Position numbers and translations under genes: made by a program
Shown: piece by piece, positions 5,575-30,454 of the stretch
Numbering within the stretch: the stretch's first letter is position 1
Layout: each line of letters opens with the position of its first letter
Assembly: GCA_014905635.1 (NCBI GenBank)
Contig: JABVCE010000002.1
Span: 186,001-250,000, forward strand
Length of the DNA stretch: 64,000 bases
Origin: Scenedesmus sp. PABB004
Lineage: Eukaryota
Direction of reading: 5' to 3'
Notes under the pieces: model-generated
The model's database searches: none
Told to the model about the DNA's origin: nothing
Seen by the model: the letters and a program-made list of their open reading frames with translations, nothing else

Positions 5575-6463
5575 GCACACGCACCCCCCCCCCCACACAC
5601 ACACACACCCACCCACCCACCCACCCGCCCACACACACACCCCGCACCCACCCGCCCACCCGCCCACCCCCGCCAGGTCGGCGGCGAGCGGTACAACCTG
5701 TTCACCGGCTGCCCCCAGGCGCGCACAAGCACGATCGTGCTGCGCGGCGGGAGCGAGCAGTTCATCGACGAGGCCGAGCGCTCGCTGCACGACGCGATCA
5801 TGATCGTGCGCCGCGCGCTCAAGCACGCGCACGTCGTCGCGGCGGCGGCGCGGTCGACATGGCGCTCAGCGCCGCGCTGCGCGGCCACGCGCGCGGCATC
5901 GCGGGCAAGTCGCAGCTCTTCATAAACGCCTACGCCAAGGCGCTCGAGGCCATCCCGCGCCAGCTCTGCGACAACGCGGGCTTCGACGCGACAGACGTGC
6001 TCAACAAGCTCCGCCAGAAGCACGCGCTCGCTGACGGCTCCGGCAAGGTGCGGCGCGCAGGCGGCGCTGGCGCGCGGGCGCGCGCGCGGGCTGGGCGTCG
6101 GCCGGCCGCCAGGCCCCGCGCGCGCCGCGCGCGGCGCGCGCTGGAGCTCCCCGCCCACCCCGTCCGCCCGGTCGTCTGCCTGCCGCCGCCGCGCCGCTGC
6201 CTGGCGCGTCCGCACAGTACTTTGGCGTGGACGTGAACAGCGGGGGCGTGGTCAACACGTTTGACGCGTACGTGTGGGAGCCCGCGCTGGTCAAGCTCAA
6301 CGCGATACAGAGCGCCACCGAGGCGGCCTGCCTCATCCTCAGCGTCGACGAGACCGTGCGCAACCCGCGCAGCGAAGCGCCCGACGCGTCGCCCATGGGC
6401 GGCGGGCGCGGCATGGGCCGCGGCGGCATGCGCGGCCGCGGGCGGGGCATGATGCGCCGCTGA
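3145..6463 (+). CDS. CCT7: T-complex protein 1 subunit eta (CCT7), multi-exon
   Basis: [84 protein letters not shown] and a GRGMGRGG tail. Apparent 1-nt deletion near 5841. Confidence 0.96.
5500..5645. repeat. (CT)n/(CA)n microsatellite in a CCT7 intron
   Basis: Direct reading of the sequence. Confidence 0.85.
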
Positions 6464-25489: not shown

Positions 25490-25874
25490 GACCCCTGATC
25501 GGGCCGCGGCGGCGCGGGGCGGGCGGCGCGCGAGCAGCGGCGCGCCCGTGCGGGGCCGCTGAGACGCGCACGCGGGCTGGGCGGGCGTCGATCAGGCGCG
25601 CCGCGCGGCGGGTCCGACAATGGCCGCGCCTGCGGGGCGCTGGCGCCGCGTGCGGCGGCACAGCGCCGCAGCGACCGCTGGACCGCCGGCGCAGGCCGCA
25701 CCCGCGCGGCGCGGCCGCAGCGCTCGCTCGCAGCCGCCGGCCGCTCGCCACGCGTCAGCCGGGATCGGCCCCACTACCTTTTTACCCACTCGCCCACTCG
25801 CTGGCGACTAGTCAATGCCTCCGCATCCAGAGCTCGCGCGCCTGGTTTAGACTAGCGAGCGCCGCGCAACCCCA

Positions 25875-25965
25875 CCCGAGCCGTCCGGCTCACCGCTCGA
25901 ACCAACCTCCCGAGCCGTCCGGCTCACCGCCGCCACTCCACCCCCTGAACCGTCCGGCTCACCGC
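25875..25965 (-). repeat. Three 22-nt hairpin-forming repeats in the METE 3' UTR
   Basis: mRNA-sense GCGGUGAGCCGGACGG(C/U)UC at 25944-25965, 25909-25930 and 25875-25896, with a period of 34-35 nt. Confidence 0.85.
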
Positions 25966-25988
25966 CGCCCGCCGCCAGCCCCTCGCTC

Positions 25989-28900
25989 TCAGCGGCAGCA
26001 CACGCCGGCGCCGCAGCCGCCCGCGGGGACCAGGTTGTTGGCGGCCGGCTCGGCCGGCGGCGCCGCCGACACGCGCGCGCGCAGCACCGCCGCGGCGTCG
26101 ACCAGGTTGCGCAGCGCGGGGATGACCTCCTCCCAGCGCCGCGTCTTGAGCCCGCAGTCGGGGTTGACCCACAGGTGCTGCGGGCGGCCCGCGAGCACGC
26201 CGGAGTCGAGGAAGCCGGACAGGCGCTCGACGAGCCACCCGACCTCGGGCACCACGGGGCTGTGCACGTCGTACACGCCGGGGCCCAGGTCGCGGCCGTA
26301 GCGGGCGGCCGCGAGCGCGGAGACCATGGCGTCGCCGGAGCGGCTGTTTTCAATGGTGAGAACGTCGGCGTCCATCGCGTCCACCGCGGGCAGGATGTCC
26401 TCAAAGTCGCTGTAGCAGAGGTGCGTCACGACCTGCACGCCCGGCGCCGCGACGCCCGTGCACAGCCTGGCGGCGCAGGGCGGGGGCGGGCGGGGGCGGG
26501 CGGGGGCGGGCGGGGCGCGTGGTGCGCGCGCGCACGGGCGGTGAGGCCCACGCGTGCACCGCAGCCAGCCACAAAAGGCACGCAAGCACGAACAAACCAC
26601 GCACACACACACACACACACATATCTGAACAGCCACAGCCGCGGTGCGTTCCGGGATGGTCGCGCCTGCTGAGCGCCCGCGCCCCTGCCCCCGGCGCAGC
26701 TGCGCCGCCGCCACACCACCGACGCGCGCGCCGCCCGCACGGGCGGCGCGCGCGCAGCGCGTCAACACAGCAAGAGGCTCCAGGAGTCGAACCTGGTGGT
26801 CCCTGGGTGATCAGGGTGCCATGCCACATGGCCTAACCTCTCACAGTGGGTGGCGGCGGCGTGCCGGGCGCGCGCAGCGCTGAGCGCGTGCGCGCGCCCA
26901 GCAGCGCTGGCCGAGGGCGGCCAGCCAGGGGCCTGGTGGGGCGGCGGCGGCGCGGTGGTGCCGCCCCCGCCGCGTCCAGGCCCCCGGCTGGCCTCGGGTG
27001 CGGGGTGAGCTGCCCAGAGCGCGGCCCGGTCGCAGCAGCAGCGTGCGGCACACGCGCGACAGGCAGGCGGCAGCGCGCGAGCACGTGCCCACTCCTGCAC
27101 AAACGCGCAAGCCCAACCCCCCTGCCCCCCCCCTGCCCCGCCCGCACCTGAAGGCGTCCACCGCCCAGCCCAGGTAGCCCTCCCAGCGGTCGTGCTTGAG
27201 CGGCAGGCCCTCGCGCAGCGCGGGCTCGTCCACCTGCGGCCGCGTGGGCGGCCGTGAGCCGCGCGGCGGCCGTGGCCACGGGCCTGCCTGGCCTGGCCCG
27301 CCGCCGCCGGCTGGCTTGCCGCCGCCACCGCTGGGACACAGATGGCCAGCGCACTGACAGTCAACTGCACGCTGACACGTCACATCTGCGCACCTGGATG
27401 ATCTTGCACCCCGCACCCTGCAGCGCGTCGACCTCGCGCCGCAGCGCCGCCGCGAGCTGGGCCGCCTGCGCGGCGCGGCTGATGTCCTTGCGGGGGAAGC
27501 TCCAGTTGAGGATGGTCACCGGCCTGCGAGGCGGGGCGTGGCAAGAGAGAGGAGGTCCAGTGATGGCGCGCGCGTGCTGGCGGCCAGGGCTCCTGACCCT
27601 GTGCGCACGGGCAGCGAGGGCGGGGGCGGCCAGCCCGGTCGCCGCGTGCGCTCACCCGGTGAGCATGCCCTTGACCGGCTTCTTGGTGAGGCCCTGGGCG
27701 ACCTTGAACTCGCGCACCGTCATCGGCCCCGCCCATGCGACGTCGCCGGTGAGCAGCGGCGGGCGCACGTAGCGCGAGCCGTAGCTCTGCACCCAGCCGT
27801 GCAGCGTGAAGGCCAGGCCGGTCAGGCGCGCGCCAAAGTACTCCACCATGTCGGTGCGCTCCGACTCGCCGTGCACGAGCACGTCCAGCCCCAGCCCCTC
27901 CTGCACGCCGATCGCGTGCGCGACCGCGGCGTCCATCGACGCCTCGTACGCCGACGCGGTGATGTGCCCCGCGCGCAGCGCCGCGCGCAGGCGGCGGACC
28001 TGGCGCACGGCGTGGTGCGGCGCGGCGTGAGCGCGGGGGCGGGCGCGCATGCGGGCGCTCAGGGCGCGCGCGGACCAGCCACAAACGGCACGCAAGGACG
28101 AACAAACACAACACGCACACACACGCCTAAACAGCCGCAGCCGCGGTGCGCTCCGGGATGGTCGCGCCTGCTGAGCGCCCGCGCCCCTGCCCCCGGCGCA
28201 GCTGCGCCGCCGCCACACCACCGACGCGCGCGCCGCCCGTGCGGGCGGCGCGCGCGCAGCGCGTCAACACAGCAAGAGGCTCCAGGAGTCGAACCTGGTG
28301 GTCCCTGGGTGATCAGGGTGCCATGCCACATGGCCTAACCTCTCACAGTGGGTGGCGGCGGCGTGCCGGGCGCGCGCAGCGCTGAGCGCGTGCGCACGCC
28401 CAGCAGCGCTCGCCGAGGGCGGCCAGCCAGGGGCCTGGTAGGGCGGCGGTGGGTCCACCGCCACCTCCAGCCCCCGGCTGGCCTCGGGTGCGGGGTGAGC
28501 TGCCCAGAGCGCGGCCCGGTCGCAGCAGCGGCGTGCGGCACACGCGCGACAGGCATGCGGGGCGGCGCGCACGCACAAGCAAGCCCCCCCCCCTCGCCCG
28601 CGCGCTCGGGGCAGCGCCGCGCCGCCACACCACCAACACCAACCTCAGGCGTCTGCGGGAAGGAGCCGATGGTGGTCGTGGGGAAGGCGTGGAAGGCGAG
28701 CTGCTTGTCACGGCGCGACTCGTACGGCTCGGCGCGGCGCAGCAGCGCGGGATCGACGCCCGGCAGGCGCCCGCCCTCGGCGGCCGCGCCGTCGGGCGGC
28801 AGGCCCCACGCGCGCGCGGCGTCGGCGCCCGCGGGCGGCACACCGCCCGACGCGAGCGACGCCAGCGCGGCGAGCTTCTCCACCGCAAACGCGAGGCGCG

Positions 28901-30454
28901 GCAGGAGGTCGGCGGGCAGGTGCCCCGCCTCGGCGGCGGTCGTGTAGGGCAGGTGCTGCAGCGGCGCGGAGGGCTGCACGCTGATGGCCGTCACGCCGTG
29001 CGCGCCGGCGAGCTCCGCAAGCACCGCCGCCGCGGCGGGCAGGTCGTCCGCCCACACGCTGCGCCCATCGACGAGGCCCGCGCCGAGGCGCTTGCCCGCG
29101 GGGAAGCCGTGGCGCCGGATCAGCCCGAGCGTCGCGTTGCCGGCCGCCGCGCCGGGCGCGCCGCAAAAGTCGAGGCTGACCGCCGCCACGGGCAGCGCGA
29201 CCGCCCACTCGTAGGCGGGGCCGAGGTCGTCGTAATAGGTGACCAGGTCGATGGGCAGGCCCACGGCAGAGAGCGCGGCGTACGCCGTCTCATACTCGGC
29301 CCGCGCGGCGGCGCCGGCGTCGGTCGCGAGCGCGGGCTCGTGCAGCTGCACCTCGGGCGCGCCGAGGCCCTGCAGCGCGCGCAGGAGCTGGCCGTACGCC
29401 GGCAGCAGGCGCTCCACCGCGTCGCCCAGGCCCAGCCCCGGCGCGCGGCGCGCGAGCAGGGCGTAGGTGACGGGGCCTATCAGGATCGGCACCGCCGCGT
29501 CGCGGCCAATCGCCGCCTGGGCGCGGGAGACCTTGTCCAGCAGGGTCTCGAAGCACGGCGCCGTCACCGCAAAGTCGGCGGCGAGCTCGGGCACCTGCAA
29601 GGGCGGGGGGGGGGGGGCAGGGCGGCGGGCGGGCGCCGGGTCAGCGAGGGGCGGCGTGGAGCGGCGAGCGCGCACGCGCGCGCGCGCGCGGCCGGGCGGC
29701 CGGGCGGCCGACCAGGCAGGCCCGGGCGCGGGCAGCGCGCGCGGAGCACGCGGTGGGCACGGGCGCACCAGGAAGTGGTAGTTGGTGTCGAAGAACTTGG
29801 ACATGTCGAGCGCGGCCGCGCCGCCGGCGCCGCGGGCCATCGCAAAGTAGAGCTCGAGGCCGGACAGGCCCGCGAAGCGCGGCGGCGCGAGGCCGAGCGC
29901 AAAGGTGACGTCCAGGACCTGGTCGTAGAGCGTGCCGTCGACGCCCACCCGCGTCACGCCCCCGCCCGCCTGCGCGCGCCAGTCGGCGGCCTGCACGGCG
30001 TGCGCGACGTCGAGCAGCTGGGGCGCCGTGAGCTTGCCCGCCCAGTGGGCCTCCAGGGCGGCCTTCATCTCGCGCTTGGGGCCGATGCGCGGGAAGCCTG
30101 CGGTGCGGCGGGGCGGGCGGCGGCTTGGTCGGGCCGGAGGGAGCGCGCGCGCGCGCGGGGCAGCTGGTGCGTGGCAGCTCCGCGACGCGCGCGCGCGCGC
30201 GCAGAGATCGCGCGGGGGCTGTTAAAGCTGTGTGGCAGCTCCACGGCGCGCGAGCGCGGCGCCGCGCGGCGCGTCGGCAGCGCGCGCCCGGGGCGCGATC
30301 GCAGCCCGGCATGCGCCGCAGGCGCGCGCGCAGGCTGCGCCGGCACGGCGGCGTGGCGCTGACGCGATTCGCTTCAGGTTGCGCCGCGCCATCGCGCAGT
30401 GCGGGGGCGGGGGCGGCGGCTCTCACCAAACGTCGCGGACGACAGGGTGGCCAT
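25989..30454 (-). CDS. METE: Cobalamin-independent methionine synthase, 7 exons
   Basis: [90 protein letters not shown], Zn ligands THLCYS..E and [11 protein letters not shown]. Confidence 0.97.
26565..27065 (-). repeat. Intronic ~500-bp module, copy A (METE intron 6, 26467-27147)
   Basis: Near-identical to 28075-28555 (offset 1502 in the core). Confidence 0.92.
26772..26842 (-). ncRNA. tRNA-like cloverleaf element, copy A
   Basis: GAGAGGUU-AG-GCCA(UGUGGCA)UGGC-A-CCCUG(AUCACC)CAGGG-ACCA-CCAGG(UUCGACU)CCUGG-AGCCUCUU. All four stems pair and the T-loop/B-box is canonical, but the anticodon loop is 6 nt. Confidence 0.8.
28075..28555 (-). repeat. Intronic ~500-bp module, copy B (METE intron 3, 28000-28643)
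   Basis: Near-identical to 26565-27065. Confidence 0.92.
28274..28344 (-). ncRNA. tRNA-like cloverleaf element, copy B
   Basis: Identical 71-nt sequence to copy A. Confidence 0.8.

What the first reader, a model, noticed from the sequence alone, without database searches (positions are those of the whole stretch)
26467..28643. Same ~500-bp module duplicated inside non-adjacent METE introns 3 and 6
Seen: 26565-27065 and 28075-28555 are near-identical in the core and diverge at the edges. The splice-site ends of the two introns and the flanking exons are unrelated, so this is neither a tandem gene duplication nor a whole-intron copy. Homology extends about 220 nt upstream of the tRNA-like head, which does not fit a simple SINE insertion, although the downstream body plus (UG)n-rich tail is SINE-like. 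No target-site duplication was seen. Inference: either a selected regulatory cassette kept homogeneous by gene conversion, or an unusual mobile element.
Basis: partly seen in the sequence, partly recalled or inferred. Interest (0 to 1): 0.7.

Follow-up and report, generated by a model that had tools for sequence, protein, structure and literature searches.

The report
tRNA-shaped RNA cassette in algal introns
Two introns of a green alga's vitamin-B12-independent methionine synthase gene each carry the same tightly folded RNA of about 420 bases with a tRNA look-alike at its centre that cannot decode a codon, which may be a new handle by which the cell cuts or regulates this gene's transcript.

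Summary
The duplication is real: METE introns 3 and 6 share about 500 nt at 92% identity, found only twice in the genome. Independent metagenome contigs hold parts of each copy. The module is one folded RNA: its 5' flank pairs with its 3' flank (z about -9.5 against shuffles; other METE introns -0.2 to -2.7), which explains the 'upstream homology'. At its centre sits a sense-strand cloverleaf with 21 of 21 stem pairs and an intact G18/G19-T54-C56-G57-A58 elbow, but a 6-nt anticodon loop, a broken A box and no T-run. It is neither a decoding tRNA nor a SINE. None of six point differences between the copies breaks a pair (about 4% in simulation). Best reading (0.5): an intron-hosted, Pol II-made tRNA-like RNA that works like Arabidopsis GUT15 or mascRNA, copied once within the gene, where RNase P cleavage or protein binding competes with splicing. 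Function is inferred: no RNA data and no orthologous introns were reachable. The scan had not noted it before.

The parts
25989..30454 (-). Host gene METE (cobalamin-independent methionine synthase), 7 coding exons, 781 aa, single copy in G000
   Evidence: closest protein 73% identical, labelled Tetradesmus by its source
28000..28643 (-). Intron 3 (644 nt, phase 0), hosts copy B
26467..27147 (-). Intron 6 (681 nt, phase 2), hosts copy A
26565..27066 (-). Duplicated module, copy A
28075..28555 (-). Duplicated module, copy B (92.2% identical to A)
26632..27049 (-). Folded scaffold of copy A: closing helix 27049-27025/26655-26632 (21 bp), nested helices of 14, 7, 15 and 16 bp, about 80% of bases paired
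   Evidence: predicted; 138 of 167 pairs with p>0.9
28134..28539 (-). Folded scaffold of copy B, same architecture
   Evidence: 128 of 164 pairs with p>0.9
26773..26841 (-). tRNA-like cloverleaf A (69 nt, 62% GC): 7-bp acceptor, 4(+2)-bp D stem, 5-bp stem with 6-nt loop, 4-nt variable loop, canonical T arm; A at position 8 and U at position 14; leader and trailer predicted to pair (acceptor helix extended to 10 bp)
28275..28343 (-). tRNA-like cloverleaf B, identical to A
26919..26993 (-). Side hairpin H1 of copy A (30 bp with bulges); its tip is rewritten in copy B (28421-28483) but stays a hairpin
26862..26903 (-). Side hairpin H2 (19 bp); copy B 28364-28405
26722..26755 (-). Side hairpin H3 (15 bp); its 4-nt loop is inverted between the copies (copy B 28224-28257)
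26565..26626 (-). UG-rich tail outside the scaffold (copy B 28075-28128); microsatellite length differs
28553..28561 (-). 9-nt direct repeat, left copy (weak TSD candidate, copy B only)
28047..28055 (-). 9-nt direct repeat, right copy
27097..27123 (-). Probable eroded homology 5' of the module (matches 28573-28594)
   Evidence: weaker under plain scoring

Best explanation
The module is an intron-hosted structured RNA made as part of the METE pre-mRNA by RNA polymerase II. About 420 nt fold on themselves, leaving both splice sites free, and display a tRNA mimic that kept the elbow read by tRNA-processing enzymes and lost what is needed for decoding and for Pol III transcription. SHOWN: the duplication, the copy number, the predicted fold and its strength, the cloverleaf anatomy, and a PRORP gene in the genome. 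INFERRED: (1) the cloverleaf descends from an old tRNA, perhaps a bacterial or organellar-type tRNA-Gln, and is kept by selection on RNA shape; (2) PRORP and RNase Z, or another elbow-binding protein, engage it on the nascent transcript; (3) cutting or binding competes with splicing of introns 3 and 6, lowering or tuning METE mRNA and possibly releasing a small CCA-tailed RNA of about 70 nt, as for GUT15; (4) pairing of leader and trailer in the scaffold makes access conditional; (5) the second copy arose by one local DNA-level or whole-intron duplication, and two copies add dose.
For: Fold z -9.5 in both copies, and -10.4 with the cloverleaf removed; other four METE introns -0.2 to -2.7 (40 shuffles each). 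Lowest of 152 window tiles (next -4.4; the tile grid cut copy A in two). In 1380 tiles from 600 kb elsewhere in G000, 3 of the 25 lowest-residual tiles reached shuffle z of -9 or lower; the four inspected were long simple hairpins without a tRNA call. Cloverleaf pairs have p 0.82-1.0 within the whole intron. 21 of 21 stem pairs are standard although the best identity is 45 of 69 to 54 tRNAs fetched from G000 and 48 of 69 to bacterial tRNA-Gln. The cloverleaf is 62% GC in an 82% GC scaffold. G18, C56 and purine 57 are present; these are required by PRORP, whose activity does not need the anticodon arm (PMC5039416, passages). PRORP is in G000. No A box and no T-run, whereas 13 of 16 listed control B-box sites have the A box and 13 of 16 a T-run. 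0 of 6 point differences break a pair; random sets did so in 14 of 339 and 15 of 351 runs. Sense strand folds better than antisense (G-U 14 against A-C 7 and 5). Precedent: GUT15's intronic tRNA-like RNA is Pol II-made, CCA-tailed and inhibits splicing of its host intron (PMC6152437).
Against: No expression, processing or splicing data. No homologue found in any other organism, so no covariation evidence (these collections hold few eukaryote genomes). The leader and trailer are predicted paired, which should hinder RNase P and RNase Z. C-to-U changes keep G-C pairs as wobbles by default; the simulation allows for this but gives only about 4%. The cloverleaf is not significantly better conserved between the copies than the scaffold (about 0.19). 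Strongly folded introns exist elsewhere in this genome, and local duplications of 150 nt or more occur in 6 of 60 10-kb stretches. METE in Chlamydomonas is reported to be controlled by its promoter (PMC12538271, passage). No such element in the METH region.
Confidence: 0.5

Rival explanations
1. Inert or fading relic of a tRNA-bearing, fold-back mobile element (SINE-like or retrocopied RNA) that landed in one intron and was copied to a second. It is tolerated because it folds away from the splice sites; the structure was selected in the element's past, not for METE.
For: 9-nt direct repeat around copy B; removing the segment would leave an intron of ordinary size (about 140 nt against 132-174 nt for introns 2, 4 and 5; my arithmetic). 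tRNA-derived SINEs exist in Chlamydomonas (PMC3747384, table passage). The copies differ by only about 2-3% in the core, so little time has passed to test selection.
Against: Only 2 copies in 40 Mb by BLAST and by two 22-23-nt patterns with 3 mismatches (the tool warns that counts are lower bounds and that common words are skipped). A box broken, tRNA part central, no LINE-like or poly(A) tail, tail hits are plain microsatellites. Copy A has no matching direct repeat beyond a GC 7-mer. No parent tRNA above about 70% identity, yet all stems pair.
Confidence: 0.25
2. A cis-acting splicing switch: the tRNA mimic is not released but binds a tRNA-handling protein (for example a SAM-dependent tRNA methyltransferase or a synthetase) or changes fold, so reporting methionine/SAM/B12 status and opening a cryptic 5' splice site at its 5' edge.
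For: Host gene is the B12-independent methionine synthase of a genome that also has METH. Both copies are sense, in the same gene and nowhere else. GT dinucleotides in donor-like context overlap the cloverleaf's 5' edge in both copies (26844 and 26837; 28346 and 28339), buried in the extended acceptor helix. Green algae use intronic TPP riboswitches to steer splicing (PMC12371167, passages).
Against: No cobalamin, SAM or other riboswitch family matches at E up to 10. No METTL16-type motif (motif recalled). Such GT contexts are expected about 0.4 times per 600 nt by chance (my arithmetic). One dominant, very stable fold is unlike a two-state switch.
Confidence: 0.12
3. Intronic small-RNA precursor (miRNA or AGO-bound sRNA) in which the hairpins H1-H3 are the product and the cloverleaf serves as processing signal or passenger.
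For: Chlamydomonas makes most miRNAs from introns and UTRs (PMC4817775, title and passages), and intronic sRNA loci amplify locally within one gene (PMC10226591, passages). G000 has long intronic hairpins with enclosing stems.
Against: H1-H3 are 15-30 bp, interrupted and over 80% GC, against about 35-55 bp near-perfect hairpins in the controls. H1's tip is rewritten between copies. miRNA family hits are far below cut-off.
Confidence: 0.07
4. DNA-level element: an isolated B box that binds TFIIIC as a chromatin boundary (known from yeast ETC sites; recalled), with the fold incidental.
For: Perfect B-box consensus with a broken A box.
Against: Does not explain full cloverleaf pairing, the 420-nt scaffold or the sense-strand wobble bias.
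Confidence: 0.03
5. Assembly artefact: one module written twice.
For: No single read or contig spanning both copies was seen.
Against: The copies differ at 39 of 501 columns, including a loop inversion and a rewritten hairpin tip. Run X2 has a 198-nt contig at 26727-26924 with 0 differences, carrying four copy-A letters; run X3 has a contig at 27766-28132 joining exon 4 to the copy-B tail, with 3 differences, none in the tail (depths about 4).
Confidence: 0.03

Closest known systems
Arabidopsis GUT15 intronic tRNA-like RNA (PMC6152437)
   Same: Sense-strand cloverleaf inside an intron; good T loop, deviant A box, non-canonical anticodon arm; not a Pol III unit.
   Different: Host there is a lncRNA, here a metabolic enzyme gene, twice. 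The primer and probe sequences printed in its Table 3 look unrelated by eye. No 420-nt scaffold is described for GUT15. Processing and splicing effect are shown there and untested here.
mascRNA / menRNA of MALAT1 and NEAT1 (Rfam RF01684)
   Same: Pol II-embedded tRNA mimic with divergent D and anticodon arms; shared GUGG...GGCAC letters in the Rfam alignment.
   Different: 16.4 bits against a cut-off of 42.5; ordinary tRNAs of this genome score higher. Intronic, not 3'-terminal. No U-rich triple-helix element upstream (no run of four T in the scaffold).
Bacterial and organellar tRNA-Gln(UUG)
   Same: D-arm letters, 7-nt D loop, short variable loop and T arm; 118 of 120 prokaryote hits to a loosened pattern were tRNA-Gln, best 48 of 69 identical; in G000 the D/T signature occurs otherwise only in organellar Gln and Cys tRNAs and chance sites.
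   Different: Pattern was partly shaped from recall, so ancestry is only a lead. Positions 8 and 14 are swapped (A8, U14), the anticodon loop has 6 nt, no Gln anticodon.
Chlamydomonas tRNA-derived SINEX-3, -5, -6 (PMC3747384)
   Same: tRNA-derived segment followed by a body and a simple-repeat end, in a green alga.
   Different: No 5'-terminal head, no intact A box, no LINE-like 3' end, two copies only.
Plant mitochondrial t-elements (PMC11658184)
   Same: Non-decoding tRNA-like structures that direct RNase P/Z cuts in longer transcripts.
   Different: Those lie at mRNA ends in mitochondria; this lies in nuclear spliceosomal introns.

Membership tests
Functional nuclear tRNA gene | Cloverleaf with 7/4/5/5-bp stems | tested here: met
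   21 of 21 standard pairs, p 0.82-1.0
Functional nuclear tRNA gene | 7-nt anticodon loop | tested here: not met
   6-nt loop; ARAGORN calls a two-letter anticodon, also with intron search on
Functional nuclear tRNA gene | A box (T8, A14) and downstream T-run | tested here: not met
   A8/T14; no four-T run in 150 nt downstream
tRNA-Sec | UCA anticodon, long variable arm | tested here: not met
   18.5 bits against cut-off 47; the true tRNA-Sec lies at L174
tRNA-derived SINE | Dispersed multiple copies | tested here: not met
   2 copies
tRNA-derived SINE | tRNA head with A and B boxes at the 5' end of the element | tested here: not met
   about 225 nt of shared sequence lie upstream; A box broken
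tRNA-derived SINE | Target-site duplication | tested here: inconclusive
   9-nt repeat around copy B only; chance 1.3-16%
tRNA-derived SINE | 3' end shared with a partner LINE | tested here: not met
   tail hits are microsatellites with unrelated flanks
mascRNA-menRNA (RF01684) | Score above the family cut-off | tested here: not met
   16.4 against 42.5 bits; 0 over cut-off in G000, 68 of 18354 candidates scored
mascRNA-menRNA (RF01684) | Upstream U-rich/A-rich triple helix (feature recalled) | tested here: not met
   no four-T run within the scaffold
Pol II-hosted tRNA-like RNAs (GUT15 type) | Sense cloverleaf in a Pol II transcript with good T loop and deviant A box and anticodon arm | tested here: met
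   features from PMC6152437
Pol II-hosted tRNA-like RNAs (GUT15 type) | Elbow residues needed by PRORP (G18, C56, purine 57) | tested here: met
   requirement from PMC5039416; PRORP in G000
Pol II-hosted tRNA-like RNAs (GUT15 type) | Released as a stable CCA-tailed RNA; affects host splicing | not testable with these tools
   needs RNA data or a minigene
Cobalamin, SAM or TPP riboswitch | Match to the family's sequence-structure model | tested here: not met
   no riboswitch family at E up to 5 or 10
Intronic pre-miRNA | Long near-perfect hairpin yielding precise small RNAs | tested here: inconclusive
   hairpins shorter and more interrupted than control hairpins; no small-RNA data

The most novel reading that the evidence does not exclude
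The cassette is a eukaryotic tRNA-mimic sensor for the methionine cycle. Displayed twice on the METE pre-mRNA, it recruits a tRNA-handling enzyme (PRORP, a SAM-dependent tRNA methyltransferase or a synthetase) whose action depends on methionine/SAM/B12 status, and so decides between splicing and destruction of the transcript. That would be a metabolite-responsive RNA control of an algal B12 gene beyond TPP riboswitches and promoter control.
Probability: 0.12. Interest if true: 0.9.

Novelty: new variant of a known kind. Interest (0 to 1): 0.58.

Why it matters
Few tRNA mimics are known in eukaryotic nuclear transcripts (PMC10424219 says only a limited number), and the described ones sit in lncRNAs or organellar mRNA ends. 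One inside introns of a metabolic enzyme gene, held in a 420-nt scaffold and present twice, would extend RNase P-type or tRNA-mimic control to spliceosomal introns of protein-coding genes. METE expression decides whether an alga needs vitamin B12, so a post-transcriptional lever on it bears on algal B12 dependence. The element is short, discrete and directly testable in a minigene. I did not find it in print: searches (listings only; the library lacks most subscription papers, and Cognat 2008 on Chlamydomonas tRNA-related SINEs was not held).

Tried and rejected
Viral contigs: 0 hits for three patterns and no METE relative. Phage BLAST: no match. No RNA holder listed; this says nothing on expression. 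Parts without contig cover were not used. Covariance model R1 (built from the two identical copies, so no covariation) on the window plus 45 loci, on 28 loci, and on 600 kb including the METH region: nothing above 22 bits except the two copies. B-box pattern in G000: 106 sites, 100 listed, about 40 nuclear stretches fetched, no second element of this type. Rfam tRNA search scored only 63 of 216 candidates, so the tRNA comparison set (54 sequences) is incomplete. Nuclear tRNA-Glu, -Asp and -Arg as parents: weak identity only. Split, permuted or intron-containing tRNA: halves are in normal order and the loop is one base short, which splicing cannot mend. snoRNA C box and hammerhead core motifs (recalled): absent. 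Recent organellar insertion: own organellar tRNA-Gln is 38 of 69 identical and the flanks are 82% GC. 3' flank homology of the two introns: not significant. Bacterial promoter/terminator scan: nothing, and not relevant. The GUT15 supplement gave figure legends only; its alignment figure could not be seen.

Full report
1. Observation. The window comes from a 40-Mb, about 79% GC eukaryote; its METE is closest to green algal proteins (73% to one labelled Tetradesmus, 58% Raphidocelis). METE lies on the minus strand in seven coding exons (I chose the GT/AG combination that keeps the Pfam-matching frames) and is single-copy. Introns 3 (28643-28000) and 6 (27147-26467) share 27066-26565 / 28555-28075 at 92.2% over 501 columns. 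Differences cluster in a rewritten hairpin tip, a 4-nt loop inversion and the UG microsatellite; six isolated substitutions and one single-base gap lie in the folded core. This is the only non-simple duplication in the window. Local duplications of at least 150 nt and 85% identity occur in 6 of 60 sampled 10-kb stretches of the genome, so the duplication alone is uncommon but not remarkable.

2. Not an artefact, not a repeat family. BLAST of the module gave the two copies plus low-complexity hits; the 89-nt core gave 2 of 2 candidates; two 22-23-nt patterns with three mismatches gave the two copies and one 3-mismatch site. The tool warns that such counts are lower bounds. Three freshwater metagenome runs were laid on the gene: X2 holds 26727-26924 with no difference, including four copy-A letters, and X3 joins exon 4 to the copy-B tail. 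No record spans both copies and depths are about 4.

3. What the module is. ARAGORN finds the same tRNA-like gene with a two-letter anticodon in each copy, sense to METE. It folds as a cloverleaf alone and within the whole intron (pair probabilities 0.82-1.0). Laid out by tRNA positions it has a 7-bp acceptor stem, A8 and G9, a 4-bp D stem with a 7-nt loop holding U14, G15, G18, G19 and A21, a 5-bp stem with a 6-nt loop, a 4-nt variable loop and a canonical T arm. The invariant U8 and A14 are swapped, which destroys the Pol III A box. There is no T-run behind it, and its upstream flank is GC-rich while the genome's true tRNA genes mostly have A boxes, T-runs and AT-richer flanks. It cannot decode and is unlikely to be a Pol III unit.

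4. The sequence upstream of the cloverleaf pairs with the sequence downstream in nested helices of 21, 14, 7, 15 and 16 bp, with three side hairpins of 15-30 bp; about 80% of 420 nt are paired. The fold has z -9.5 in both copies against 40 dinucleotide shuffles, -10.4 without the cloverleaf, and -7.6 on the antisense strand, while the other four METE introns give -0.2 to -2.7. It is the lowest of 152 window tiles. Among 1380 tiles from 600 kb of the genome, I reshuffled the 25 lowest residuals and 3 reached z of -9 or lower; the four tiles inspected were long simple hairpins of pre-miRNA type with no tRNA call. Both splice sites stay outside the fold.

5. Signs of selection, and their limits. 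All 21 stem pairs of the cloverleaf are standard although no tRNA compared exceeds about 70% identity (45 of 69 among 54 from G000; 48 of 69 to bacterial tRNA-Gln), and it stays at 62% GC inside an 82% GC scaffold. Of six point differences none breaks a pair; random sets with the same transition share did so in 14 of 339 and 15 of 351 runs. Against this: that is about 4%, from two sequences; the cloverleaf is not significantly more conserved than the scaffold (about 0.19); gene conversion is not shown; and no homologue outside G000 was found, in collections that hold few eukaryote genomes.

6. Origin. The D- and T-arm letters resemble bacterial-type tRNA-Gln, but the pattern was partly shaped from recall, so this is a lead. 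Copy B is bracketed by a 9-nt direct repeat (chance 1.3-16%), and similarity between the introns reaches close to the donors (4-12 of 1114 controls; weaker) but not the acceptors. One consistent history, inferred only: an old insertion or in-situ build-up in one intron, a later duplication of most or all of that intron, and faster decay of the unstructured ends.

7. Mechanism. PRORP needs G18, C56 and a purine at 57 and does not need the anticodon arm (PMC5039416, passages); the element has all three and the genome encodes PRORP. GUT15's intronic tRNA-like RNA is made from a Pol II transcript, gains CCA and inhibits splicing of its intron (PMC6152437: abstract, passages, Discussion, first part of Methods and supplement legends seen). 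mascRNA and plant t-elements are cut by RNase P and Z and not charged (PMC11658184 and PMC10424219, passages). I therefore put 0.5 on an intron-hosted tRNA mimic whose cleavage or binding competes with METE splicing. The predicted pairing of leader and trailer argues against free release and leaves room for a conditional or purely cis role. Rivals: tolerated relic of a mobile element 0.25, metabolite-responsive splicing switch 0.12, small-RNA precursor 0.07, TFIIIC site 0.03, artefact 0.03. METE is B12-repressed through its promoter in Chlamydomonas (PMC12538271, passages), so an RNA switch is not required to explain known regulation.

8. Comparison and novelty. It works most like GUT15 and mascRNA, but is not a member of RF01684 (16.4 against 42.5 bits; true tRNAs score higher), of tRNA-Sec (the real genes are at L174), of any riboswitch family or of the SINEs (membership table). 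Paper searches listed nothing that describes it; I read only listings for most, and Cognat 2008 was not held. Earlier notes of this scan held nothing on this DNA; one note on a split algal tRNA prompted me to reconsider, and reject, that reading. Verdict: a real and unusual element, a new variant of Pol II-hosted tRNA-like RNAs, with function inferred and not shown. Interest 0.58.

Noticed in passing
L174 (G000:C1:4384050-4385700): tRNA-Sec (UCA) in at least four tandem copies about 170-178 nt apart, plus a fifth 3' part about 850 nt further on; no T-run right behind them.
   Followed up: no
L394:8900-9250, L415:215-340, L430:3140-3245, L388:3100-3390: Long near-perfect hairpins in apparently enlarged introns, typical of algal intronic miRNA precursors.
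   Followed up: partly
L380:3777-10000: Tandem array of a 172-bp unit, over 99% identical, at least 6 kb long.
   Followed up: no
window 25871-25969: Three copies of a 30-nt repeat just downstream of the METE stop codon, 34-35 nt apart.
   Followed up: no
L431:4183-4529 and 6046-6391: Inverted duplication of about 350 nt at 90% identity, 1.5 kb apart, apparently non-coding.
   Followed up: no
L145 (G000:C13:2111330-2111450): A tRNA 3' part with B box and T-run but no A box, 1.4 kb from an intact tRNA-Ala; probable pseudogene.
   Followed up: no
G000:C67:1359298-1360543 and C13:2235419-2236077: B12-dependent methionine synthase (METH-type) exons and a PRORP gene; the genome holds both methionine synthases.
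   Followed up: partly
window 26736-26739 and 28238-28241: The 4-nt loop of hairpin H3 is inverted between the two copies, a hairpin-mediated micro-inversion.
   Followed up: yes
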